27,778 bases of DNA from a virus (IMGVR_UViG_2802429234_000007:1-27778); one strand, 5' to 3'; counted from the first letter of the stretch, positions 7,780 to 25,745 are shown. Notes: a model not told the origin generated them from the sequence alone. Program-made: numbers and translations.

Positions 7780-9743
7780 GCGCCAAGCTCCTGCCATTCC
7801 ATAAGCTGGGATGGAGAAAGTGCTTCTTTGGTATGGAAATGCACTTCACCAATTTTCCGGCTGTTATCGGTTACAGATTTACTGTTGCTGCTGATTGTTT
7901 TGCTGATACCACCTTTATCCACACCTTTTAAATCACCACCCGTCGACAGTGTATTTCCGGTTAATGGCTGCGTGGTTTCACTGGCCAGTGAAATATCCAC
8001 GCCGGGAATTTTATTCAGTTTCTGAACAATCCAGTTCCACGATTTAAGAAATCCCCCTTTGATTGACTTCCAGACATTATCAAACAGCGACATAATGTCG
8101 GTGGCCATTCCCTTTAATGCCTCAGACGGTGAAAATCCTGTCAGCAAAGAAATAAAGCTGTTCCATCCTTCACTGATATATTGCCAGGCTGAAGCAAAGA
8201 TCCCCGCCAGCCATTTCACCACGGCGGCACATGTCTGGAAGGCTTCGGTATTCATCACCGCTGCTTTTATCGTGTCCCAGTGCTTAACCAGCAGATAACA
8301 ACCGACAACCAGCAGCGCAATGGCACCAATCACAAGCAGGATCGGCCAGCTCATCAGGTTGATACCAATTCCGGCCATTATTGCGGCCATGCGTACCGCC
8401 AGTAACGCACCGCGCAAAAACTTCAGCGTGGTATTCCAGGCGATTACCGCCATTTGCGACAGCCAGACAGTGGCCGTGTAGATTTTCGTAACCGCCGTTA
8501 ACGCCCCCCAGATCCCGCGCAGTCCCATCATGATGAATCTGGATACTCCCATCACGATATTGGCCACCGCACCCACGGCGGCAAAGCTCAGTAGTGCCAT
8601 CGACGCATAACCAATCACACGGGCAATGTTAGGAAATAACTGCATCCAGCGGGCAAAGGTCTGCCCCATATCAGCCAGGCGATTCAGAACCGGATACAGC
8701 ACCGGGATCAGCGTCAGCCCGATCACGGTCTGAATGGCTTTCAGGATTTGCACAAAGCGATCCCACGGCTTAACCATTTTTTGAGCCATTTCCTGGGTAC
8801 GCTTCAGACCGTCCGCGCCGCCCAGTTCGGTGATGTTCCGCTGAAGTAACGCGACATTGCCGTAAAGCTGTTTAACCACTGCAGAACTGTCACCAAAGGC
8901 TGCATCCAGTTCCGCCTGGGCTTTCAGGTTCCCTTCAAGGCTTTTGCCATATTTGCCCTGCAACTTGATCAGCATTTCAGGCATGGACAGCATTTTGCCG
9001 GTGGAGTCAGTAAAGGACAGCCCCAGCTTTTTAGCGCCATCAATCGCACCAGTCATAAATCCTTCATAGGCGCTGCTGGCTTCCGTTCCCAGTGTCCGCT
9101 GAAGTTGCCCCAGAACGGCCAGCTGTTCATCCAGTCCCACGCCGTAGTTAGTCCCTACGCCGCGCGCACCTTCCATCAAATCCTTGATAGTGGCCATTTC
9201 TGTGCCAAATGTTTTGCGCATATAAAGCATCTTGCCCGCCAGCTGTTCGGCAAATTCAACCTTGCCCAGTCTGGCGGCATCGGCGGAAAAGTTACCAAAC
9301 ATCTGCCCCATAAATTCCGCCGTGTCCGCCGCTGTGGACTTGAGCGCAAAAGCCAGGGTATTGGCGACTTTCGTCACCTTCGGCAGTTCATTACCCGTCA
9401 GTCCGGCAATGGAAGCGTTAATATTTTCCGTGGATTTAACGAACTCCACCGCGCTGGCACCGTAGGTTGTACTGAAGCGCAGGGCATCACGCTGAACGGT
9501 CTTAAGCGCGGAATCATCGATACCTTTTGCGGCGACATCATTCAGCGCGTCATACATTTCAATTGCCGGTGATAACGCGCCCCTGATCGCCATCCCGACA
9601 CCGGCCAGCGCCATCGCGCCGCCGCCAATCTGCATAAAGGCCGCTTTTGATTTTTCCGCAAAGCCGGTGACATTACCCTGCGCCTGTTTTAACGGGCGGG
9701 ATAATTTATCAATCAGGCTTAATGTAAAATCTAATTGTTTCAT
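7776..9743 (-). CDS. Tail tape measure protein
   Basis: 655 aa, Ala/Gly-rich with long hydrophobic central segment; directly after chaperone and frameshift region. Confidence 0.85.
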   Translation of the reverse strand: MKQLDFTLSLIDKLSRPLKQAQGNVTGFAEKSKAAFMQIGGGAMALAGVGMAIRGALSPAIEMYDALNDVAAKGIDDSALKTVQRDALRFSTTYGASAVEFVKSTENINASIAGLTGNELPKVTKVANTLAFALKSTAADTAEFMGQMFGNFSADAARLGKVEFAEQLAGKMLYMRKTFGTEMATIKDLMEGARGVGTNYGVGLDEQLAVLGQLQRTLGTEASSAYEGFMTGAIDGAKKLGLSFTDSTGKMLSMPEMLIKLQGKYGKSLEGNLKAQAELDAAFGDSSAVVKQLYGNVALLQRNITELGGADGLKRTQEMAQKMVKPWDRFVQILKAIQTVIGLTLIPVLYPVLNRLADMGQTFARWMQLFPNIARVIGYASMALLSFAAVGAVANIVMGVSRFIMMGLRGIWGALTAVTKIYTATVWLSQMAVIAWNTTLKFLRGALLAVRMAAIMAGIGINLMSWPILLVIGAIALLVVGCYLLVKHWDTIKAAVMNTEAFQTCAAVVKWLAGIFASAWQYISEGWNSFISLLTGFSPSEALKGMATDIMSLFDNVWKSIKGGFLKSWNWIVQKLNKIPGVDISLASETTQPLTGNTLSTGGDLKGVDKGGISKTISSNSKSVTDNSRKIGEVHFHTKEALSPSQLMEWQELGA

Positions 9744-14644: not shown

Positions 14645-15346
14645 TTACCCTTGAGTCAGTTTTCGGATACGGGCGGCAATTGTCTGCCGCGCCGTTCTGA
14701 CGCCAATTTTTGAGTAGTGTTTTTCTGCAATAGCCAGCAGTTGATCGGCTTTTTCCAGCGTTTCAATATCATCCACGCCCGCCGCCGTTTTCTGGCCATC
14801 GTCATTGCGTAGCAACTCCTGACCGGCAAACTTGAACCATTTGGCCGTCACCTGCTCATGCAGTCGCCAGGTGTTTGCCACCCGCTCAAACGTTCGGGTG
14901 AAATAAGGCTCCACACTTTCCCCGCGCCCTGCGGTTTCCTGCGCCCATGCCAGCATCGTATCCGCCACGAAAGTGGGAAAATTGCTGCGTAACCGATCCG
15001 GGGTTGCCTGCTGCTGGCTGATAGCAATGTCAGCCCAGTCCAGCGCCTTATCCAGATCGCCCACGTCAAACAGCCAGATAACACACCAGGCAAAAACCGG
15101 ATTTGCATACTCCTGGCCACTCTCCAGATAGGCTTCCACAGTGGGAACCCAGCGCGGCAACAGCACATTGCGTTTGTACTCGACGCGATCGGCGATGGTA
15201 GGCAGACTTCGAATATATTCCACATCCGTTTCCAGCGCCCTGACCAGCAAGTGCATGCTTTCCGTGGTTTCCAGTGCCTGGCTGCGCTTCAGCTTTTGTT
15301 CCATCGCAATACGCTGGCTGTGACGCTGCGCGGGGGAAAGTGCCAT
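14645..15346 (-). CDS. M: Terminase small (endonuclease) subunit, P2 gpM-like
   Basis: 233 aa; N-terminus MALSPAQRHSQRIAM matches recalled gpM N-terminus (SPAQRH); position N-M-L. Confidence 0.8.
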   Translation of the reverse strand: MALSPAQRHSQRIAMEQKLKRSQALETTESMHLLVRALETDVEYIRSLPTIADRVEYKRNVLLPRWVPTVEAYLESGQEYANPVFAWCVIWLFDVGDLDKALDWADIAISQQQATPDRLRSNFPTFVADTMLAWAQETAGRGESVEPYFTRTFERVANTWRLHEQVTAKWFKFAGQELLRNDDGQKTAAGVDDIETLEKADQLLAIAEKHYSKIGVRTARQTIAARIRKLTQG

Positions 15347-15349
15347 TTA

Positions 15350-16372
15350 TCAACCCTCCACCGGTTCGGAGACTTTGCCGATTGTCACAGCGGATTCATC
15401 AATAGCCGCATACAGCTCCGGCACTTCCACCGCGTAACCTTCATTGCGCAGGTATTTGTTTTCGAACTGCTTACGATCTTCAACAAACTCCGCCTTACGC
15501 ATACGGGTATTGCGCTGGGTGTAGATGTGCAGGTTAGAAAGCGGCGTAACCACCATGCGTTTACCCGGCATAAACGGCGGGATAATAGCCGGACGGCCAG
15601 CAATGGTGCTTCCCAGCATCTGCGCCGCGATTTTTTCAGTCGGACGGTCTGCTGCCTGATACAGTCGGTATTGTTCAGCTGCGACCAGATCGGCACCAAC
15701 CAGAACAACCAGACGCGGGTCATTGCGGAACTGTGCCGGGATTTTGGCGTTAATCAGATCGGACGCCATTGCATCCAGTGATTTGTAATCCCCGGCCTCA
15801 TCAAGCACCACGGCATCCGTCATAATCTGATTGCCGCCCAGCAGCGTTTTCATACGCTCATGCCAGCCAACGTTCACATCCTCGCCGTTCGGGTTAGTTT
15901 CCGGATCAGTGGTTTTCGCGCGACTTTTACCGTTAAAACCAATGCGCAACATATCCAGCGCAAAAGCCTGCGTGGTGAATGCCTGTACCAGGTTGTAAAA
16001 CTCGTTTTCGTCCTTACCGGCGTTTGCCCAGACAGAAAGCAGATCCCAGCGCAACGCGGCACAGCTGTCTGTTTCAACCAGGGAATAGTCATTACCGTCA
16101 ACGCCTACCTGACGAATGAAACGGCCATTTTCGCTGCGGCCGGTATGCAGCACAGAGGAACCGACAGAGATCACCTGGCCACTCAGCTGGTCAACATCCA
16201 GACAGGTGATCATGTTCAGGAACTCGACGGACTCCAGCAACGCAAGACGCAGCGCATTTTCCTGCGGGTCATTCAGGGAAAAATATCGACTGGTATCACG
16301 CGCACCAAACTGCTGCGCCATCCCCGCCGAATATTTATCCAGTAAATCCCGCGCACGATTATTAAGGTGCAT
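15350..16372 (-). CDS. N: Major capsid protein, P2 gpN-like
   Basis: ~341 aa from MHLNN (GAGGGAG RBS upstream); internal segment IGFNGKSRAKTTDPETNPNGEDVNVGW resembles gpN. Confidence 0.85.
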   Translation of the reverse strand: MHLNNRARDLLDKYSAGMAQQFGARDTSRYFSLNDPQENALRLALLESVEFLNMITCLDVDQLSGQVISVGSSVLHTGRSENGRFIRQVGVDGNDYSLVETDSCAALRWDLLSVWANAGKDENEFYNLVQAFTTQAFALDMLRIGFNGKSRAKTTDPETNPNGEDVNVGWHERMKTLLGGNQIMTDAVVLDEAGDYKSLDAMASDLINAKIPAQFRNDPRLVVLVGADLVAAEQYRLYQAADRPTEKIAAQMLGSTIAGRPAIIPPFMPGKRMVVTPLSNLHIYTQRNTRMRKAEFVEDRKQFENKYLRNEGYAVEVPELYAAIDESAVTIGKVSEPVEG

Positions 16373-17399: not shown

Positions 17400-19175
17400 A
17401 TGGCTAAATACTCTGAAGAATTAAAAGGCGTTGTTCGCGCACTTTATCTGCGCCGCTATACGCCAAAGGAAATCGCATCTGAATTAAATCTGCCGAATGC
17501 GCGGATCGTTTACTACTGGGCGGAAAAATACAGCTGGGCGGATTTGCTCAGTTTTGAAAGCACTGAGGAAGCAATTGAACGCCGTTACCAGCTGCTGGCC
17601 AGCCGCGATAACAAAACCGAGCTCGACCTGAAAGAAATGGACATGCTCATTGCTCATGCCACGAAACTGCGTGCGCAGAGTAATAAACACAAAGAGAAAA
17701 TGGCCAGCGGTCAGAGTTCCGGGCAAGCAGCTGCGCGGGACAACAATGACGACGAACCACGCAGCAAACGGAAATACAAGAAAAACGATATTACGTCGCT
17801 GACGCAGGAGGACTTTGGCGCATGGGCTGAGGAACGTCTTTTTGAATATCAGAAACACCTGCGCAATAACATTGGCCAGCTTGTCAGGAACATCCTGAAA
17901 AGCCGCCAGATCGGTGCGACCTGGTATTTTGCGTTTGAAGCGTTTGAAAATGCGGTGATGACCGGCGATCCGCAAATCTTTCTGTCAGCGTCAAAGGCAC
18001 AGGCTGAAGTGTTCCGGTCTTACATCGTGAATATTGCAGAGCAGTATTTCGGTATTACGCTAACCGGCAACCCGATCCGCTTAAGCAATGGCGCAGAACT
18101 GCGTTTTCTGTCCACCAACAAAAACACCGCCCAGTCCTACAGCGGCCACCTGTACTGTGACGAATATTTCTGGGTGCCAAACTTTGCAAAACTTAACGAA
18201 GTGGCCAGCGCAATGGCCACACATGACAAGTGGCGCACCACCTATTTTTCAACGCCATCGGCAAAAACGCACCAGGCGTACCCGTTCTGGACGGGCGATG
18301 AGTGGAAACAGGGCAGCAAAAAACGTGCAGCCATTAAGTTTCCGTCCTTTGACGAAATGCGTGACGGCGGGCGGCTCTGCCCGGATGGACAATGGCGCTA
18401 CGTCATTACGATGGAAGATGCCATTGCGGGCGGTTTCAACCTGGCGAATATCGAAAAACTGCGCAACCGCTACAACGACACCACTTTTAACATGCTCTAT
18501 ATGTGCGTGTTCGTTGACAGCAAAGATTCCGTTTTCAGCTTTTCCGACCTGGAAGCCTGCGGCGTTGAAGTCGACACCTGGCAGGATCACAACCCTGATG
18601 CAGCCCGTCCATTCGGTGACAGGCCAGTGTGGGGCGGCTTTGACCCGGCTCGCAGCGGGGATTTGTCCTGTTTTGTCATCATCGCCCCGCCGATGCTCGC
18701 CGTGGAGAAGTTCCGCGTTCTGAAGGTGATTTACTGGAAAGGCATGAACTTCCGTTACCAGGCAAAACAGATCGAGCAGTTGTTCAAAAAATATAACTTC
18801 ACTTATCTGGGGGTGGACGTTACCGGCATTGGCCAGGGTGTTTTTGACAACATTCAGCATTTTGCCATGCGTGTGGCCGTCCCTATTCGTTACGACCTGA
18901 ACACCAAAAATAAGCTGGTACTGAAAGCGGTGGACGTGGTGGAAAGCCAGCGTATTGAGTGGGATAAAAACCTGAAAGAGATCGCGGCCAGCTTTATGTC
19001 TGTGCGTCGAACCACCACACAAAGCGGCAACGCCATGACGTTTGTCGCTGACCGCAGCCAGGATACCGGCCACGCAGAGGCATTCTGGGCAATTACCCAC
19101 GGTCTGTATAACGAACCCCTTAACTATGAAAACAAACCTAAATCCCGCTGGGGTGTAAGGAAAGAGGCAGCATGA
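17400..19175 (+). CDS. P: Terminase large (ATPase) subunit, P2 gpP-like
   Basis: 591 aa; deviant Walker A SRQIGATW, Walker B HLYCDEYFW, C-terminal nuclease-like region. Confidence 0.9.
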   Translation: MAKYSEELKGVVRALYLRRYTPKEIASELNLPNARIVYYWAEKYSWADLLSFESTEEAIERRYQLLASRDNKTELDLKEMDMLIAHATKLRAQSNKHKEKMASGQSSGQAAARDNNDDEPRSKRKYKKNDITSLTQEDFGAWAEERLFEYQKHLRNNIGQLVRNILKSRQIGATWYFAFEAFENAVMTGDPQIFLSASKAQAEVFRSYIVNIAEQYFGITLTGNPIRLSNGAELRFLSTNKNTAQSYSGHLYCDEYFWVPNFAKLNEVASAMATHDKWRTTYFSTPSAKTHQAYPFWTGDEWKQGSKKRAAIKFPSFDEMRDGGRLCPDGQWRYVITMEDAIAGGFNLANIEKLRNRYNDTTFNMLYMCVFVDSKDSVFSFSDLEACGVEVDTWQDHNPDAARPFGDRPVWGGFDPARSGDLSCFVIIAPPMLAVEKFRVLKVIYWKGMNFRYQAKQIEQLFKKYNFTYLGVDVTGIGQGVFDNIQHFAMRVAVPIRYDLNTKNKLVLKAVDVVESQRIEWDKNLKEIAASFMSVRRTTTQSGNAMTFVADRSQDTGHAEAFWAITHGLYNEPLNYENKPKSRWGVRKEAA

Positions 19176-20233
19176 GTAAAAAGAAACGCTTTGTTAAGCG
19201 CGACCAGCGTGGCGACAAATCAAAAAAGATGAGCATTATCACATTCGGCAAGCCTGAACCGGTTCTGACTACCGGCACAGATTACCGTGATATCTGGTAC
19301 GACAATGCAGCCGATCACTTCACCCAGCCGATAGACCGGCTGGCACTCGCGCAACTGATTAATCTTAACGGTCAGCACGGCGGCATCATTCACGCCCGTA
19401 AAAACATGATTGTTTCAGACTACCAGGGGGGCGGGCTTATTCATGACCAGCTGGAAGCGGCAGCGTTTGACTATATAACCTTTGGGGATATTGCGATTGC
19501 AAAAATTCGTAACGGCTGGGGCGACGTGATCGCACTTGAACCCTTGCCCGGTCTGTATATTCGCCGCCGCAAAGTCAGAGATAACGCGCTGGATAAGCCC
19601 GGTGACTACGTAGTGTTACAGGAAGGGGAACCGCAGGTATGGCCAGAAGAAGATATTATCTTCATCAAAATGTATGACCCGCAACAGCATATCTACGGAC
19701 TGCCGGACTACATCGGCGGTGTGCATTCCGCGTTACTTAACAGTGAAGCGGTCATTTTCCGACGCCGCTATTACCACAACGGTGCGCACACAGGCGGTAT
19801 TCTTTATACCCGTGATCCCAGCATGACGGACGAAATGGAGGAAGAAATTGAACAGCAGCTGCGTGACAGCAAAGGGATCGGTAACTTCTCCACCATCCTT
19901 GTAAACATTCCCGGTGGAGACGGCGACGCCATCAAATTCATTGAAATGGGGGATATTTCCGCGAAGGATGAATTTGCCAACATCAAAAACATCAGCGCCC
20001 AGGACATTCTGAACGCGCACCGTTTCCCTGCTGGCCTCGCCGGTATTGTCCCGCAGAACACTGCCGGACTGGGGGATGTTGAAAAGGCTGAACGCATTTA
20101 CAAGAAAAGCGAAATTGCCCCCATCCAGCGCCGCTTCATGCTGGCCGTTAACAACGATCCCGAAATCCCGGAAAGGCTACACCTTAACTTTGATTTAAGT
20201 TACACAGAATCAACGGATAAGGGTGCGGCATGA
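19172..20233 (+). CDS. Q: Portal protein, P2 gpQ-like
   Basis: 353 aa; ATGA overlap with terminase stop; size and P-Q synteny as in P2. Confidence 0.75.
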   Translation: MSKKKRFVKRDQRGDKSKKMSIITFGKPEPVLTTGTDYRDIWYDNAADHFTQPIDRLALAQLINLNGQHGGIIHARKNMIVSDYQGGGLIHDQLEAAAFDYITFGDIAIAKIRNGWGDVIALEPLPGLYIRRRKVRDNALDKPGDYVVLQEGEPQVWPEEDIIFIKMYDPQQHIYGLPDYIGGVHSALLNSEAVIFRRRYYHNGAHTGGILYTRDPSMTDEMEEEIEQQLRDSKGIGNFSTILVNIPGGDGDAIKFIEMGDISAKDEFANIKNISAQDILNAHRFPAGLAGIVPQNTAGLGDVEKAERIYKKSEIAPIQRRFMLAVNNDPEIPERLHLNFDLSYTESTDKGAA

Positions 20234-20283
20234 GGCGAAACAGGCTAAAATCCAGGCATCATTTAACAGCTGGAGCATGGAAT

Positions 20284-20553
20284 ATGCGAGTTCTGAAAAT
20301 CGAATGCCCGGAATGCGGCTCAAAGGCTGTTATTCGTAAAACGAACAGGAAGCACCGGCAGATTGCGGATATTTACTGCGCCTGTTCAGATGTTGAGTGT
20401 GGCCACACGTTTGTTATGAATCTGACGTTCTCCCACACTCTCAGCCCCAGCGTTAAAACGGGTGATGCGATGGTGCAAAAAATACTGAATGCACTTTCAC
20501 CCGATCAGCGCCAGATGGCATTAGACCTACTGAAAGCGACTCCCGCCGCCTGA
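20284..20553 (+). CDS. ogr: Ogr/Delta-family zinc-finger late transcription activator
   Basis: CPEC-x20-CACSDVEC four-cysteine motif near the N-terminus; GGAG RBS before ATG at 20284; alternative upstream ATG at 20230 overlaps the portal stop. Confidence 0.7.
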   Translation: MRVLKIECPECGSKAVIRKTNRKHRQIADIYCACSDVECGHTFVMNLTFSHTLSPSVKTGDAMVQKILNALSPDQRQMALDLLKATPAA

Positions 20554-20739
20554 AATGCCCCCATTACTGGGGGTTTTGTTCTCATACTCATCGAGCTTAC
20601 TTTCTAGATCTGAAGTCAGTTCGCTCAGCCAGGCAAGTGCTATGTCTTTCTCACAGCCGGTGCAATTACTTTTAGCTATAAGCCTTGTAAACAACGCAAT
20701 CCGCTGCAATGCGATAGTTTCCAAAAACAAATCCTGCAC
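20527..20739 (-). CDS. Small SOS-controlled ORF (candidate Tum-like antirepressor), ~70 aa
   Basis: ORF downstream of LexA box; GGGAGG RBS 6 nt before a GTG start at 20739 (an ATG at 20745 has poor spacing); 3' end is antisense to the ogr stop region. Confidence 0.4.
   Translation of the reverse strand: MQDLFLETIALQRIALFTRLIAKSNCTGCEKDIALAWLSELTSDLESKLDEYENKTPSNGGISGGGSRFQ
20557..20580 (+). terminator. Rho-independent terminator after the ogr-like gene
   Basis: CCCCC-attact-GGGGG hairpin followed by TTTTGTT, 4 nt after the stop codon. Confidence 0.65.
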
Positions 20740-20762
20740 AAGCATCCTCCCAAAAACAGAAT

Positions 20763-20782
20763 AACTGTATATAAATACAGTA
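20763..20782 (-). promoter_or_regulatory. LexA (SOS) box overlapping a -10-like TATACT
   Basis: aaCTGTatataaatACAGta matches CTGT-N8-ACAG consensus; minus-strand TATACT overlaps the box. Confidence 0.75.
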
Positions 20783-20860
20783 TACATTTAAGCACAAAAT
20801 GTGAAAGTGCTTTTTCCTGCCATCTACTGACAAATGAATGCCTTTCACATACTTACACCA

Positions 20861-22951
20861 CTACAACCACCCCGGCCACAGTTCCTGTAATGGCTCGTTT
20901 TGAGTCTCTTTAAGCCACCCGTTGCGGTAAATCAGTGCGCCCTGACCAAATCTCAAACCACTACCCCGCAGGAGAATGGCTATTTCTTCATCAGAACCAT
21001 CAAAACCCCGACTGCGTAATTCCAGTTTTAACCGTCTGCGGGTTCCCCCCTCCGTACAGTTATTGACAGAACTCCAAGGGGCGGCGTTGCCGCCAGAAAA
21101 ACCCGCCTCCGCTGGCGCTTCGGCCAACTTCGCAACCTTTTGCCACTTAACCAGACGGGTGCAGACTTCTGAATCAGGAACCAAAGGAGAATAAACACCC
21201 TGTACGCGCTGCACGTCCTCTGCGTATTCGTTTCCCTGTTCCGTAATTTCATAGGCCAGACGAACAACCAGATCACGGCGGGCAACCAGTGCACCGCCCT
21301 GCGCCTGGGTGTATGCAGCCCAGTCTCCGACATCAGCAGCAGCCAGAACCGCGTCCATTCTGCGATCGGTCAGCACCTGATCCCGCAACCGACGCAGCTC
21401 ACGCCACACGGTAACCGGCGCACCTCCAATCTGCTGAAACTGACGAATGCGCCAGCGTGAAGCCCACGCAGAAACTGATTTAGCCATATCACGCAGGTTC
21501 TCGCCGGTTTCTTCGTCCTGCTCACCATCCAGCGCAAAACCATCAATATTTTTTGAAATGTATTTCGCGATGTAGCCCGTGGCCGAACCTTTGGTGGGAT
21601 CGATAGCTTCAACGTGAAAACGCGCCTTAAGCGCCTTTTCAGATTGCAGTTCCTCAGAATCGGTAATTCTGGCGTGATAACAAAGAATATCGCGCACTGT
21701 GTCTACGTCCTGCGGGCGCATAAAAAGCAACATATGCCAGTGTGGTGTCCCGTCATGGTGAGGCTCAACAACCCGAAACCCAAATACATGAATACCCGCA
21801 CGCGAGATCGCTGCGCGGGCTTTTGCCCATACGCCGCATAAATAGCGCTGGGTATCCTGCGGCGTACATCCATCCCATTGCGATACAAAGCCCCCTTTGC
21901 TGTGTACCGCATGGAAACGTGATGGCGCGGTGATGGTGTAAAACTCACCGGCCAGCCCTTCTTCATTGGCCATATCTTCAAACCCCCGCATTCTTACCAT
22001 TAGCTCACAGCGACGGATCGCCGGATTTGCAACGCTGTGGTGCACCATGCTGTCCAGTGCAATGCGCAACCCCTCATCATTCAGCAGATCAAACTTTTTA
22101 AAGAACTCCAGATTCCGCTTTTTCTGGTCTATCCATTCGCCCAGGGTTTTACGGGATACATAAGCGCTGGCCGCTTTCTGCACCTGTCCCACAGCTATGG
22201 CCATATGTTCGCGCTGCGTGTCACGCGCTCGCTTCAGGCGCAGATACCACCATTCTGGCGCCATCATGCGCAGTATCCCGGATTCCGCCTTACGTGTTTC
22301 CAGTTGCCCGCCATTGGCTTCATGTTCTGCCCAGTATGGCGGCTGATTGTTCAGCATCACGGAACACGTGCATAAATGGCGGTAAGACTCCAGCGTACGG
22401 CGGCGCATCTCTGCGGCATCGTCAGTGCTGCCCACAAACTGATCGGTGAATTCATAAAGTGACTGAGAGAGCCAGCCAGATATCTGGCCAGCCAGTTTTT
22501 TGATGTCCGGGCGGTCAAGTGACGGTAGTCGCTCCAGCGACTTACCGAAAGGAAGATCAAGTGCATCAGCGGCCAGTTTGTAACGTGCAGCCACTTTGCG
22601 CAGACGTGGCAATACATTCTCACCGATAGTTTTACGCAGGAATGTATTGGCACGGCGACGCCCGTCACAACCAGCCAGCAGCTTTTCGTAACGGTTGCCG
22701 AAATACCCGGCTAACCAGTCGGGTATCTCATGCAGGTACTGGGAACGCCACTCATAATCCTGTGGGTTAACAGCCCACAGGCGACGTTCTGTGATCGTCG
22801 CATCTGACGGGGTGCTAGGCGCAAAGGTTTCACGCCGCCAGGCATTGACGGCATGGTGTTGGCCAGGCTCCAGCATATCAACCACGGTTACCTTCCGGCA
22901 GGTGGGAAAGCAGCTGTGGCATAAGGCGGGCATTGCTGCCCACCCACTCAA
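20861..22951 (-). CDS. A: Replication initiation protein (P2/186 gene A-like rolling-circle endonuclease)
   Basis: ~690 aa; HUH motif PHWHMLLF and tyrosine motif GYIAKYISKN; exact start uncertain (several in-frame Met). Confidence 0.85.
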   Translation of the reverse strand: MSGWAAMPALCHSCFPTCRKVTVVDMLEPGQHHAVNAWRRETFAPSTPSDATITERRLWAVNPQDYEWRSQYLHEIPDWLAGYFGNRYEKLLAGCDGRRRANTFLRKTIGENVLPRLRKVAARYKLAADALDLPFGKSLERLPSLDRPDIKKLAGQISGWLSQSLYEFTDQFVGSTDDAAEMRRRTLESYRHLCTCSVMLNNQPPYWAEHEANGGQLETRKAESGILRMMAPEWWYLRLKRARDTQREHMAIAVGQVQKAASAYVSRKTLGEWIDQKKRNLEFFKKFDLLNDEGLRIALDSMVHHSVANPAIRRCELMVRMRGFEDMANEEGLAGEFYTITAPSRFHAVHSKGGFVSQWDGCTPQDTQRYLCGVWAKARAAISRAGIHVFGFRVVEPHHDGTPHWHMLLFMRPQDVDTVRDILCYHARITDSEELQSEKALKARFHVEAIDPTKGSATGYIAKYISKNIDGFALDGEQDEETGENLRDMAKSVSAWASRWRIRQFQQIGGAPVTVWRELRRLRDQVLTDRRMDAVLAAADVGDWAAYTQAQGGALVARRDLVVRLAYEITEQGNEYAEDVQRVQGVYSPLVPDSEVCTRLVKWQKVAKLAEAPAEAGFSGGNAAPWSSVNNCTEGGTRRRLKLELRSRGFDGSDEEIAILLRGSGLRFGQGALIYRNGWLKETQNEPLQELWPGWL

Positions 22952-25065: not shown

Positions 25066-25169
25066 TAGTTGTTAATAATCTACAAACGGCAATTATCAGT
25101 ATCTACATTCGAAACAATGCAGAGACTATTTTTAAAATTGTCGTTTGTCAATAATTGCGAACTACAAAC

Positions 25170-25745
25170 ATGACAACTTACAACATCAAGACAGGTGCAC
25201 GCGAAGCAATCGAAAGGGTGTGTGAGGCCTATGGTTTTACATCCAGAATGCAGTTAGCAAATTATCTTGGAATGTCTCCAAGTGCTTTAAGTACACGTAT
25301 CATGCGTGACAACTTTCCTGCTGATTTAGTGCTACTTTGTGCTCTAGAAACAGGAGCTTCTATCTACTGGCTAACCACTGGTGATGGCGTTAGATTTAAT
25401 CAGGTGGCAAGTGATACCACTCGAATCTCAGCCTATAAAATCGAAGGGTCTGATATGGTTCGCCAAGCATCCGTAATTTTCGATAAGACAATACTCCCCA
25501 ACTACAAAGGTGAACTTCAAATAATCAGTGATAGTTCAGTAAGATTTTTCGTAGATATCGCTGATTACCCTGTTACGGACGGTAAGTTCCTTCTTGAGTA
25601 TTCTGGTACGAAAAGCATCAAAGAATTGACGTTACTTCCTGGTAACAAATTGCGGATTGACTGGGGAAAATATCCAGTTGATTGCGACGTATCTGATGTG
25701 CAATTGATTGGGAAGGTTGTGGCCACATACTTAGTGAGTGAGTAA
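25170..25745 (+). CDS. cI: Immunity repressor, phage 186 CI-type (N-terminal HTH, ~191 aa)
   Basis: ERVCEAYGFTSRMQLANYLGMSPSALSTR...CALETGASIYWLTTGDG resembles 186 CI; upstream of int with 1-nt overlap; the ORF-track start at 25155 is TTG, ATG at 25170 preferred. Confidence 0.7.
   Translation: MTTYNIKTGAREAIERVCEAYGFTSRMQLANYLGMSPSALSTRIMRDNFPADLVLLCALETGASIYWLTTGDGVRFNQVASDTTRISAYKIEGSDMVRQASVIFDKTILPNYKGELQIISDSSVRFFVDIADYPVTDGKFLLEYSGTKSIKELTLLPGNKLRIDWGKYPVDCDVSDVQLIGKVVATYLVSE

What the first reader, a model, noticed from the sequence alone, without database searches (positions are those of the whole stretch)
20739..20782. Near-consensus LexA box driving a small ORF in the tum position
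aaCTGTatataaatACAGta at 20763..20782 is a near-perfect SOS box and overlaps a -10-like TATACT on the minus strand. About 20 nt downstream is a small ORF with a good RBS, downstream of gene A exactly where phage 186 places its LexA-controlled antirepressor tum. This implies the prophage is SOS-inducible through an antirepressor rather than through repressor autocleavage. The ORF (~70 aa) is much shorter than 186 Tum and runs antisense across the ogr terminator and 3' end, so it could alternatively be an SOS-induced antisense transcript.
Basis: partly seen in the sequence, partly recalled or inferred. Interest (0 to 1): 0.6.

Follow-up and report, generated by a model that had tools for sequence, protein, structure and literature searches.

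The report
SOS-controlled TumA-type antirepressor gene
This P2/186-like prophage carries a strong LexA (SOS) operator over the promoter of a small gene related to the front half of phage 186's Tum antirepressor, so DNA damage probably wakes the prophage by the known 186 route; it is an unnamed member of a known system.

Summary
AACTGTATATAAATACAGTA (20763-20782) is the only close match to the LexA consensus in the window: 2 mismatches, 0 of 100 shuffles. On the minus strand its first six bases are the -10 hexamer TACTGT. TTCACA lies 17 nt upstream. These are the same hexamers as the annotated p95 (tum) promoter of phage 186.

A minus-strand gene of 70-72 aa follows (start 20745 or 20739, stop 20527-20529), just downstream of replication gene A.

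The protein is homologous to the N-terminal, antirepressor half of 186 Tum. This shows through an intermediate sequence and through profiles, not by direct BLASTP. It is the stand-alone "TumA" form seen in PSP3 and Fels-2. The DinI-like half is absent.

The prophage repressor is a 186-type CI with no autocleavage domain.

Of 43 related loci, 34 keep an exact CTGT-N8-ACAG core 29-59 nt upstream of the gene. The background rate is 0.004 per equivalent stretch. TumA sequence class tracks the class of the CI N-terminal domain in 33 of 35 phages.

The antisense-RNA alternative has no support as the main function. The tail that crosses the ogr terminator is unconserved and predicted disordered.

Verdict: a real feature and a new, so far unnamed member of a known kind.

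The parts
20763..20782 (.). LexA (SOS) box AACTGTATATAAATACAGTA; minus-strand reading TACTGTATTTATATACAGTT
   Evidence: It has 2 mismatches to the consensus, is the only such site in the window, and appeared in 0 of 100 shuffles. An equivalent box lies 29-59 nt upstream of the homologous gene in 34 of 43 related loci (exact core) and in 39 of 43 with at most 1 core mismatch.
20800..20805 (-). Predicted -35 hexamer TTCACA of the tum-type promoter
   Evidence: This is the same hexamer as the annotated -35 of 186 p95. TTTCACA or TTTACA is conserved at this spacing in enterobacterial relatives. The generic sigma-70 scan did not report it.
20777..20782 (-). Predicted -10 hexamer TACTGT, which is the first 6 nt of the LexA box, 17 nt downstream of the -35
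   Evidence: It is identical to the annotated -10 of 186 p95, which likewise forms the start of the LexA site. It is conserved in the box-anchored alignment.
20746..20751 (-). Shine-Dalgarno sequence GGGAGG
   Evidence: Read directly from the sequence. It lies 6 nt before GTG 20739 and 0 nt before ATG 20745. GGAGG-type sites occur in the same place in relatives.
20527..20745 (-). tumA-like gene. It encodes 72 aa from ATG 20745 (the PGAP call in a near-identical E. coli prophage) or, more probably, 70 aa from GTG 20739. The stop is TAG 20529-20527.
   Evidence: Matches to phrog_698 at 3e-17 and phrog_8554 at 3e-7. It is 36% identical to the YenM_324 orthologue (E 2e-15), which is 44% identical to 186 Tum residues 1-61 (E 2e-13). 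hhalign against 186 Tum gives 87% probability, E 3.7e-6. Change is biased to third codon positions and is mostly synonymous.
20578..20739 (-). Conserved core of the protein, about 54 aa: a predicted helical hairpin (helices 2-25 and 30-56 in 72-aa numbering) with a conserved Cys28 in the loop
   Evidence: Alignments. AlphaFold2 model with pLDDT about 90 over residues 11-50. Homologues from Fels-2 and Klebsiella phages align only over this part.
20527..20577 (-). C-terminal tail of 16 residues plus the stop codon. It is encoded antisense to the ogr terminator hairpin and to the last 27 nt of ogr. It is non-conserved and predicted disordered.
   Evidence: pLDDT is below 50 for residues 60-72. 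The tail is absent or different in Fels-2, 186 and several Photorhabdus, Xenorhabdus, Pectobacterium and Erwinia loci, where the ORF stops before the ogr end.
20557..20574 (+). Intrinsic terminator hairpin of the ogr-like gene (GCCCCCATTACTGGGGGT followed by a T-run). It is not followed by a T-run on the minus strand.
   Evidence: Terminator scan and minus-strand sequence.
20230..20553 (+). Convergent Ogr/Delta-type zinc-finger late-gene activator. Its possible start at 20230 overlaps the portal gene stop; an alternative start is at 20284.
   Evidence: PF04606 at 9e-20. Annotated as an ogr/Delta-like zinc finger protein in RefSeq relatives.
20861..22951 (-). Replication gene A (rolling-circle nickase), immediately upstream of the tumA promoter on the same strand
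   Evidence: Annotated as 'nicking at origin of replication' or 'replication endonuclease' in 98.6% identical phages. No terminator-like site was found between A and tumA.
25155..25745 (+). 186-type CI immunity repressor, the presumed target of the small protein
   Evidence: PF07022 (CI HTH domain) at 1.8e-24 and PF16452 (CI C-terminal domain) at 5.8e-16, with no S24 peptidase domain. The class of its N-terminal domain co-varies with TumA class.

Best explanation
This is the SOS-induction module of a 186-type temperate phage in its minimal form.

Proposed sequence of events:
1. In the lysogen, host LexA binds the box at 20763-20782. The box covers the -10 hexamer and the predicted transcription start of a minus-strand promoter (TTCACA, 17 nt, TACTGT), so the small gene is silent.
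2. DNA damage leads to RecA-stimulated LexA self-cleavage, and the promoter fires.
3. A helical-hairpin protein of about 70 aa is made. It is a homologue of PSP3 TumA and of the N-terminal half of 186 Tum.
4. This protein binds the 186-type CI repressor and stops it binding its operators. The early lytic promoter is derepressed and the prophage enters lytic growth.
5. CI is not cleaved, so the effect should reverse once LexA is restored.

Shown here: the box, its position over a p95-like promoter, the coding status of the ORF, its homology to the Tum N-terminus, the CI type, and conservation of the whole arrangement.

Inferred: LexA binding, the transcription start, CI binding and inducibility.

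Also inferred from co-variation: the target surface lies in the CI N-terminal (DNA-binding) domain. Because no terminator separates A from tumA, lytic transcripts may read into tumA and reinforce the switch.
For: LexA box:
- It is unique and near-consensus, and its approximate heterology index is in the range of the strongest SOS boxes.

Promoter:
- The -35 and -10 hexamers are identical to those annotated for 186 p95. There too the LexA site starts at the -10.

Synteny:
- The order A, then LexA box, then small gene is the same as in 186, PSP3 and Fels-2.
- The PSP3 record names the equivalent gene tumA, 'similar to 5' end 186 tum; UV induction of prophage'.

Homology:
- The window ORF matches phrog_698 at 3e-17 and phrog_8554 at 3e-7.
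- 186 Tum residues 4-44 match the same two profiles at 3e-5 and 1e-11.
- The chain window ORF to YenM_324 ORF (E 2e-15) to 186 Tum 1-61 (E 2e-13) holds.
- hhalign gives 87% probability, E 3.7e-6.

Comparative evidence:
- 34 of 43 tumA-bearing loci, from Escherichia to Xenorhabdus, have an exact CTGT-N8-ACAG core 29-59 nt upstream. The background is 0.0036 per 126 nt.

Coding status:
- Differences at codon positions 1, 2 and 3 are 5, 2 and 19, with 15 synonymous and 6 non-synonymous codon changes, against a locus 87% identical in DNA.

Repressor:
- CI is 186-type with no autocleavage domain.

Co-variation with CI:
- TumA identity correlates with CI identity (Mantel r 0.42, p 2e-4) more than with gene A identity (r 0.31).
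- The two TumA superclasses pair with the two CI N-terminal-domain classes in 30 of 32 loci (Fisher p 5e-7, loci not independent).
- The same pairing holds in 3 of 3 further phages: Fels-2, ESSI-2 and YenM_324.
- The pairing recurs across backbones whose gene A is 93-98% identical.

Literature:
- 186 Tum binds CI and blocks its operator binding. In PSP3 the upstream half-gene carries the antirepressor activity. The latter is a personal communication relayed in PMC3121763.
- p95-tum drives UV induction of 186 (PMC7708051).
- Deleting tum, or making lexA non-inducible, abolishes induction of a P2-like prophage of E. coli HS (PMC12055606).
Against: - Direct BLASTP of the window protein against 186 Tum and against PSP3 TumA finds nothing. 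Homology rests on intermediates and profiles over about 40-60 residues.
- No Pfam or NCBIfam family covers the protein, and PGAP calls it hypothetical.
- The generic promoter scan reports no sigma-70-like site, because TACTGT matches TATAAT at only 3 of 6 positions.
- The assignment of antirepressor activity to the N-terminal half rests on a personal communication cited in PMC3121763 and on notes in the 186 record, not on data I could read.
- Two loci (L015, L043) pair a TumA class with the 'wrong' CI class. An identical TumA also occurs with CIs whose N-terminal domains are only about 50% identical, so specificity is loose at best.
- Nothing here tests LexA binding, transcription or CI binding.
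Confidence: 0.85

Rival explanations
1. The main product is an SOS-induced antisense RNA. Transcription from the LexA-controlled promoter runs into the convergent ogr-like gene and the P-Q late operon. It would lower or time late-activator expression by transcriptional interference or RNA pairing, and the ORF would be incidental.
For: The ORF's 3' end overlaps the ogr 3' end by 27 nt and includes the ogr terminator hairpin. No intrinsic terminator is seen on the minus strand within about 350 nt after the stop. The 27-nt overlap recurs in many relatives.
Against: The reading frame is intact, with a conserved ribosome-binding site and start, in all relatives. Change is mostly synonymous. The protein is homologous to Tum. 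In Fels-2, PSP3 and 186 the gene is not convergent with ogr at all. In several ESSI-2-type loci (L020, L024, L030, L041) the ORF stops before the ogr end. The transcript folds no better than shuffles (z 0.09), and there is no Rfam match. Read-through interference could still exist as a side effect.
Confidence: 0.05
2. A real SOS-induced small protein whose job is not antirepression. It might modulate RecA or the SOS response, as DinI and TumB do, inhibit cell division, or interfere with other phages. Induction would then depend on something else.
For: The activity of this particular protein is untested. 186 SOS-operon products also have non-antirepressor roles: the record notes that truncated Tum forms 'modulate SOS induction' and that orf97 blocks infection. 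Identical TumA occurs with rather different CI proteins.
Against: The protein aligns with the N-terminal part of Tum, not with the DinI-like part, and no DinI similarity is detected in the window. The CI has no autocleavage domain and there is no other LexA box or antirepressor candidate in the window. The TumA class to CI-NTD class pairing is what a CI-binding protein would show.
Confidence: 0.08
3. A chance LexA-like palindrome next to a spurious ORF, or an inactive relic.
For: A+T-rich palindromes do arise in intergenic DNA. A few relatives do carry decayed versions: degenerate boxes in L033 and L037, and a truncated gene in L028.
Against: 0 of 100 shuffles give such a site. The box is conserved at the same distance from the gene in 34-39 of 43 loci, against a background of 0.004-0.05. 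The window copy has an intact box, promoter, ribosome-binding site and ORF, and matches viable phages isolated from viromes at 98.6% (PMC6969025).
Confidence: 0.02

Closest known systems
Tum of coliphage 186 (p95-tum SOS operon)
   Same: It lies downstream of gene A. The promoter has the same -35 TTCACA and -10 TACTGT, with the LexA box starting at the -10. The N-terminal approx. 45-60 residues are homologous. The cognate repressor is a 186-type CI with no autocleavage domain.
   Different: The 186 protein is 146 aa, with a C-terminal DinI-like half and several in-frame internal starts. Its operon continues into orf97 and has its own terminators. The window protein is 70-72 aa, with no DinI part and no orf97, and its gene ends inside the convergent ogr gene. 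Direct pairwise similarity is undetectable.
TumA of PSP3, and its counterpart STM2728 of Fels-2 (split tumA/tumB)
   Same: It is a stand-alone protein of about 60 aa that corresponds to the 5' half of tum. It is preceded by a LexA box and lies downstream of A. Fels-2 STM2728 is 49% identical to the window protein over residues 3-55 and falls in the same PHROG.
   Different: In those phages tumA is followed at once by tumB (a DinI homologue) and further genes before cos and Q. Here nothing follows, and no ESSI-2-type locus has a DinI homologue. PSP3 TumA itself is too diverged for BLASTP, and its CI has a duplicated N-terminal domain.
Other LexA-controlled small antirepressors (Gifsy GfoA/GftA, Fels-1 FsoA, N15 AntC)
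   Same: The logic is the same: LexA represses a small protein that binds and inactivates a non-cleavable phage repressor (PMC3121763).
   Different: No sequence relationship was found or tested beyond the family searches. Those proteins act on different repressor families and sit in different genomic contexts, so the resemblance is functional only.

Membership tests
186 Tum / PSP3 TumA family of LexA-controlled antirepressors | Sequence homology to the N-terminal (antirepressor) part of 186 Tum | tested here: met
   Shared PHROG profiles: the window ORF matches phrog_698 at 3e-17 and phrog_8554 at 3e-7; Tum 4-44 matches them at 3e-5 and 1e-11. An intermediate chain holds at E 2e-15 and 2e-13. 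hhalign gives 87% probability, E 3.7e-6. Direct BLASTP is negative.
186 Tum / PSP3 TumA family of LexA-controlled antirepressors | LexA operator overlapping the -10 and transcription start of its promoter | tested here: met
   Met at the sequence level only. The box at 20763-20782 starts with TACTGT, which equals the annotated 186 p95 -10, and TTCACA lies 17 nt upstream. Actual LexA binding and the transcription start were not testable.
186 Tum / PSP3 TumA family of LexA-controlled antirepressors | Location downstream of replication gene A in a P2/186-like (Peduoviridae) genome | tested here: met
   Gene A occupies 22951-20861 on the minus strand, then comes the box, then the ORF. The order is the same in 186, PSP3, Fels-2 and about 30 ESSI-2-type loci.
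186 Tum / PSP3 TumA family of LexA-controlled antirepressors | Cognate immunity repressor of the 186 CI type, not RecA-cleavable | tested here: met
   The window CI has PF07022 and PF16452 and no Peptidase_S24. All tumA-bearing loci with enough flank have a CI of this type.
186 Tum / PSP3 TumA family of LexA-controlled antirepressors | Protein binds CI and prevents operator binding; required for SOS induction | not testable with these tools
   Support is indirect only: TumA class pairs with CI N-terminal-domain class in 33 of 35 phages.
Full-length 186-type Tum (fusion of antirepressor and DinI-like domain) | C-terminal DinI-like domain, or an adjacent tumB/dinI gene | tested here: not met
   The protein ends after a 16-residue non-conserved tail. 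No DinI homologue (E <= 1e-3) is found in the window or in any ESSI-2-type locus, whereas Fels-2, a Klebsiella phage and 186 score 1e-42 to 8e-19.
cis-antisense regulatory RNA against ogr or the late operon | Conserved RNA structure or a known RNA family; function independent of translation | tested here: not met
   There is no Rfam hit and the folding z-score is 0.09. The frame is under purifying selection, and the overlap with ogr is absent in several relatives. Functional independence from translation was not testable.

The most novel reading that the evidence does not exclude
The TumA helical hairpin of about 55 aa acts on the N-terminal DNA-binding domain of 186-type CI repressors. It comes in at least two interchangeable specificity classes: the LQRIxLFT type here, in Fels-2 and in ESSI-2, and the ERIELxA type in 186 and YenM_324. 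These classes are swapped as cassettes together with matching CI N-terminal domains, across otherwise near-identical phage backbones. A further point: in the ESSI-2 lineage the SOS operon is stripped to this single gene and aimed head-on at the late activator ogr, so SOS transcription might also delay late-gene activation. Vibrio relatives fill the same LexA-controlled slot with an unrelated small protein, which hints at repeated invention of such antirepressors.
Probability: 0.35. Interest if true: 0.45.

Novelty: new member of a known kind. Interest (0 to 1): 0.27.

Why it matters
It assigns a probable function, and a corrected start codon, to a small gene that current annotations call hypothetical, extend into its own promoter, or omit. 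It predicts that ESSI-2/Quadragintavirus-type prophages of E. coli, Citrobacter, Salmonella and relatives are SOS-inducible by the 186 route. That matters for prophage induction by DNA-damaging antibiotics. The comparative set also gives a testable lead on an open detail of the 186 switch: which part of CI the antirepressor recognises. It supplies natural allele pairs and two apparent mismatches (L015, L043) for testing specificity. The mechanism itself has been known since the 186 work, so the advance is incremental.

Tried and rejected
- Direct BLASTP of the window protein against 186 Tum and against PSP3 TumA gave no alignment. Homology had to be shown with PHROG profiles, an intermediate sequence and hhalign.
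- Pfam and NCBIfam gave no family.
- A PDB sequence-profile search gave nothing meaningful.
- Foldseek of the AlphaFold model against the PDB gave only generic helical hairpins (E > 0.8).
- The generic sigma-70 scan found no promoter in 20100-21100. I relied instead on identity with the annotated 186 p95 hexamers.
- The search for related loci with the TumA alignment failed, because no conserved 7-10-column stretch exists. I anchored on the neighbouring ogr protein instead.
- About 20 of the ogr-anchored loci have ogr in another context, with no gene A nearby and no tumA. I set them aside.
- Codon-position bias alone cannot separate the minus ORF from the plus-strand ORF 20555-20764, because the two frames share wobble positions. 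I rejected the plus ORF because 2-4 stops break it in at least 10 relatives, and because it has no ribosome-binding site and starts inside the ogr terminator.
- The second CTGT-N8-ACAG at 7861-7876 was judged to be chance.
- A search for the P2 cos 19-mer found nothing.
- Bunny et al. 2002 (PMC151935) is not held.
- The Phollow paper and its supplement do not say which ORF of E. coli HS was deleted as 'tum'.
- A literature search for TumA/TumB returned only unrelated papers.

Full report
**What the window is**

The region around the finding is 98.6% identical to the viable temperate phages Escherichia phage ESSI2_ev040, ev015 and ev129 (Peduoviridae, Quadragintavirus). It is more distantly related to Cronobacter phage ESSI-2, Salmonella phage S.Kent 1-2-1 and Yersinia phage vB_YenM_324. 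The ESSI2_ev phages were isolated from infant-gut viromes (PMC6969025).

The local gene order is as follows:
- Terminase P, 17400-19175, plus strand.
- Portal Q, 19172-20233, plus strand.
- An Ogr/Delta-type zinc-finger gene, 20230 or 20284 to 20553, plus strand (PF04606, 9e-20).
- A small minus-strand ORF, then the palindrome, then replication gene A (22951-20861, minus strand).
- Further on, a cox/apl-like gene, cII, and a CI repressor (25155-25745, plus strand) followed by integrase.

**Check of the observation**

The 20-mer at 20763-20782 is AACTGTATATAAATACAGTA.
- It has 2 mismatches to the LexA consensus TACTGTATATATATACAGTA. It is the only site in the window within 3 mismatches, and none appeared in 100 dinucleotide-preserving shuffles.
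- The bare core CTGT-N8-ACAG occurs once more, at 7861-7876. That copy has a G+C-rich spacer and poor flanks inside a tail gene, and I regard it as chance.
- A heterology index gives 1.1 or 3.4 depending on orientation, comparable to umuDC, recN and sulA. I built the matrix from about 20 E. coli SOS boxes recalled from memory, so this number is approximate.

The minus strand reads TTCACA (20805-20800), 17 nt, TACTGT (20782-20777). TACTGT is the first six bases of the box. Then come GGGAGG (20751-20746), ATG (20745) and GTG (20739). The frame is open to TAG at 20529-20527.

**Which start codon**

The Shine-Dalgarno sequence abuts the ATG with no spacer but lies 6 nt from the GTG. Homologues begin at the position equivalent to the GTG: MQD.., MRD.., MHD...
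- A 70-aa product is therefore the more likely one.
- PGAP calls the 72-aa version in a near-identical E. coli prophage (WP_024169177.1, 'hypothetical protein').
- The 86-aa RefSeq model in ESSI2_ev040 starts at ATG 20787, upstream of the -10 hexamer, so it cannot be right.

**Comparison with phage 186**

The 186 record annotates, downstream of gene A, the promoter p95 (-35 TTCACA, -10 TACTGT), a LexA site that begins at the -10, and tum ('expression repressed by LexA; inhibits CI DNA binding'). The window has the same two hexamers, the same relation between box and -10, and the same position relative to A. The generic promoter scan misses the site, because TACTGT is a weak match to TATAAT.

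**Is the small protein a Tum relative?**

Direct BLASTP against 186 Tum finds nothing. Three other lines of evidence agree:
- Shared profiles. The window protein matches phrog_698 (3e-17) and phrog_8554 (3e-7). Residues 4-44 of 186 Tum match the same two profiles (3e-5 and 1e-11). Fels-2 STM2728 is a core member of phrog_698 (6e-38).
- An intermediate sequence. The syntenic ORF of YenM_324 is 36% identical to the window protein (E 2e-15) and 44% identical to Tum residues 1-61 (E 2e-13).
- A profile comparison. A family profile built without the 186 and Yersinia sequences aligns to Tum residues 5-43 with 87% probability, E 3.7e-6.

The shared motif is roughly E-x3-(L/I)-(Q/E)-R-(I/V)-x-(L/M)-x8-C-x6-(I/L)-A-L-x-(W/L)-(I/L)-x-E-(L/I).

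So the protein corresponds to the N-terminal half of Tum. PSP3 and Fels-2 have that half as a separate gene, followed by a DinI homologue:
- In PSP3 the genes are tumA ('similar to 5' end 186 tum; UV induction of prophage') and tumB.
- In Fels-2 they are STM2728 and a 'DinI family protein'.

PMC3121763 states that tum is split in Fels-2 and PSP3, and that in PSP3 the upstream gene carries the antirepressor activity. That statement is a personal communication relayed through Bunny et al. 2002, a paper I could not read.

The window has no DinI-like sequence, and neither does any ESSI-2-type locus.

**Is it a coding gene?**

- Against an E. coli prophage 87% identical in DNA over this stretch, differences fall 5, 2 and 19 at codon positions 1, 2 and 3. 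There are 15 synonymous and 6 non-synonymous codon changes, and the non-synonymous ones sit almost entirely in the C-terminal tail.
- The plus-strand ORF 20555-20764 shares wobble positions with this frame, so position bias alone does not exclude it. However, 2-4 stops break it in at least 10 relatives, while the minus frame is always open.
- AlphaFold2 predicts helix 2-25, a loop containing the conserved Cys28, and helix 30-56, with pLDDT about 90. The tail at 57-72 is disordered.
- Structure and sequence searches of the PDB were uninformative.
- An exhaustive profile search found 82 representative clusters at E <= 1e-3. Nearly all are stand-alone proteins of 50-100 aa.

**Comparative evidence for the operator**

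In 186, Fels-2, a Klebsiella phage, ESSI-2, S.Kent 1-2-1 and YenM_324, the single LexA box in several kb lies just upstream of the homologous gene.

I then anchored on the neighbouring ogr protein and retrieved 53 genomic loci.
- About 30 have the arrangement Q, ogr, tumA (reverse), box, A (reverse). The rest carry ogr in another context and lack both A and tumA.
- Over all 43 loci with a TumA match, 34 have an exact CTGT-N8-ACAG core 29-59 nt before the start, and 39 have at most one core mismatch. The background in the same loci is 0.0036 and 0.048 per 126 nt.
- A box-anchored alignment shows TTTCACA or TTTACA conserved about 17 nt upstream in the enterobacterial members.
- The exceptions look like decay: degenerate boxes in two Xenorhabdus loci and a truncated gene in a third.

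**Link to the repressor**

The window CI has the two domains defined on 186 CI (PF07022, PF16452) and no S24 peptidase domain. It is therefore not expected to autocleave.

In E. coli RefSeq genomes the locus is rare (23 of 5426). In 21 of those, the flanks match at about 92% while the tumA segment does not, which indicates an allelic cassette.

Across 32 loci that have both genes:
- TumA identity correlates with CI identity (Mantel r 0.42, p 2e-4). It correlates somewhat better with the CI N-terminal domain (r 0.45) than with the C-terminal domain (r 0.36) or with gene A (r 0.31).
- There are two broad TumA types: LQRIxLFT, as here, and ERIELxA, as in 186. They pair with two CI N-terminal-domain types (..SKSTL..R.MRD.FP.. 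and ..IASSSLS.RYKRGGFP..) in 30 of 32 loci.
- Fisher's exact test gives p 5e-7, but the loci are not independent.
- The pairing recurs in backbones whose gene A is 93-98% identical.

Three further phages fit the pairing: Fels-2, ESSI-2 and YenM_324. PSP3 has a divergent TumA and a CI with a duplicated N-terminal domain.

Two caveats apply. L015 and L043 break the rule. An identical TumA also sits with CIs only about 50% identical in the N-terminal domain and 26-29% identical in the C-terminal domain. I read this as suggestive evidence that TumA contacts the CI N-terminal domain with broad class specificity. It is not proof.

**The antisense idea**

The ORF does cross the ogr terminator hairpin (20557-20574) and the last 27 nt of ogr. 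I see no intrinsic terminator on the minus strand for about 350 nt. Read-through into ogr and Q is therefore possible, and it could cause some interference.

As the main function it fails, for these reasons:
- The overlap is missing in several relatives, and is missing altogether in 186, PSP3 and Fels-2.
- The overlapping part encodes an unconserved, disordered tail. Its recurring P...GG residues simply mirror the hairpin's C and G runs.
- The RNA folds no better than shuffles, and there is no Rfam match.

**Mechanism proposed**

1. LexA occupies the box and blocks the -10 and the transcription start.
2. SOS-triggered LexA cleavage releases the promoter.
3. The hairpin protein of about 70 aa accumulates, then binds and sequesters CI, as shown for 186 Tum (PMC3121763, PMC7708051).
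4. The early lytic promoter is derepressed.

Because there is no terminator-like site between A and tumA, early lytic transcripts may extend into tumA and reinforce the switch. This last point is inference.

A P2-like prophage of E. coli HS requires both tum and cleavable LexA for induction (PMC12055606). I could not confirm which ORF was deleted there.

**Verdict**

It is a new and currently unnamed or mis-annotated member of the known Tum/TumA family, in a minimal one-gene form. Novelty is modest. The most interesting by-product is the pairing of TumA class with CI N-terminal-domain class. Every functional step (LexA binding, induction, CI binding) still needs experiments.

Noticed in passing
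window 20527-20787 (minus); L001 8328-8588; L002, L005, L010: Annotation problems. RefSeq ESSI2_ev040 gp27 is modelled as 86 aa from an ATG that lies upstream of the predicted -10, inside the promoter. The gene is not annotated at all in Cronobacter phage ESSI-2, Yersinia phage vB_YenM_324 or E. coli JNE25-001. PGAP elsewhere calls it a 72-aa hypothetical protein. Shine-Dalgarno spacing and homologues favour the GTG at 20739 (70 aa).
   Followed up: yes
window 20230-20553 (plus): The Ogr/Delta-type late activator sits immediately after portal gene Q, and its possible ATG overlaps the Q stop (ATGA). It is not next to the tail genes and att site as in P2 and 186. It may therefore be co-transcribed or translationally coupled with the late P-Q operon that it is expected to activate. 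No match to the P2 cos 19-mer (up to 3 mismatches) exists in the window, and tumA and ogr leave no gap where P2 has cos.
   Followed up: partly
L059 about 8150-8510 and L060 about 8640-9000 (minus strand): P2-like prophages of Vibrio and Aliivibrio have a strong LexA box in the same slot. It is followed by a 71-72-aa ORF (MSLKQQDIFLQAMEFIIDAV..., MTDKEQYLKAMELILDAV...) that does not match the TumA profile. This may be an analogous, unrelated SOS-controlled small protein.
   Followed up: no
L001 about 15336-15355 (ESSI2_ev040, between cI and int): A second LexA-like palindrome, CACTGTTTATTTATACAGTG, lies between the repressor and integrase genes of ESSI2_ev040. The window has a different cI-int junction and lacks it.
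   Followed up: no
E. coli RefSeq loci L010, L011 and 19 others: In 21 of 23 E. coli genomes that carry this prophage type, the ogr and A flanks match the window at about 92%, but the tumA segment is replaced by a different allele (about 30% protein identity). A different CI N-terminal-domain class comes with it. This looks like cassette-like exchange.
   Followed up: yes
L014, L015, L043: Exceptions to the TumA/CI pairing. Siccibacter loci L014 and L015 have identical CI N-terminal domains but TumA of different classes. L043 (Photorhabdus) pairs an ERIEL-type TumA with a class 2 CI. These may be non-inducible recombinants, or evidence that specificity is looser than the classes suggest.
   Followed up: partly
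L028 7935-8120; L033 and L037 upstream of tumA: Signs of decay in some Xenorhabdus prophages: a 5'-truncated tumA in L028, and degenerate LexA boxes in L033 and L037 (for example TTGT...ACAA).
   Followed up: partly
L068 2219-3079 (PSP3 cI): PSP3 CI (286 aa) contains two tandem copies of the 186-type N-terminal HTH domain, and its TumA is the most divergent of the set.
   Followed up: no
window 7861-7876: This is the only other CTGT-N8-ACAG in the window (CTGTTATCGGTTACAG). It lies inside a tail gene, with a G+C-rich spacer and non-consensus flanks. I judged it to be chance.
   Followed up: partly
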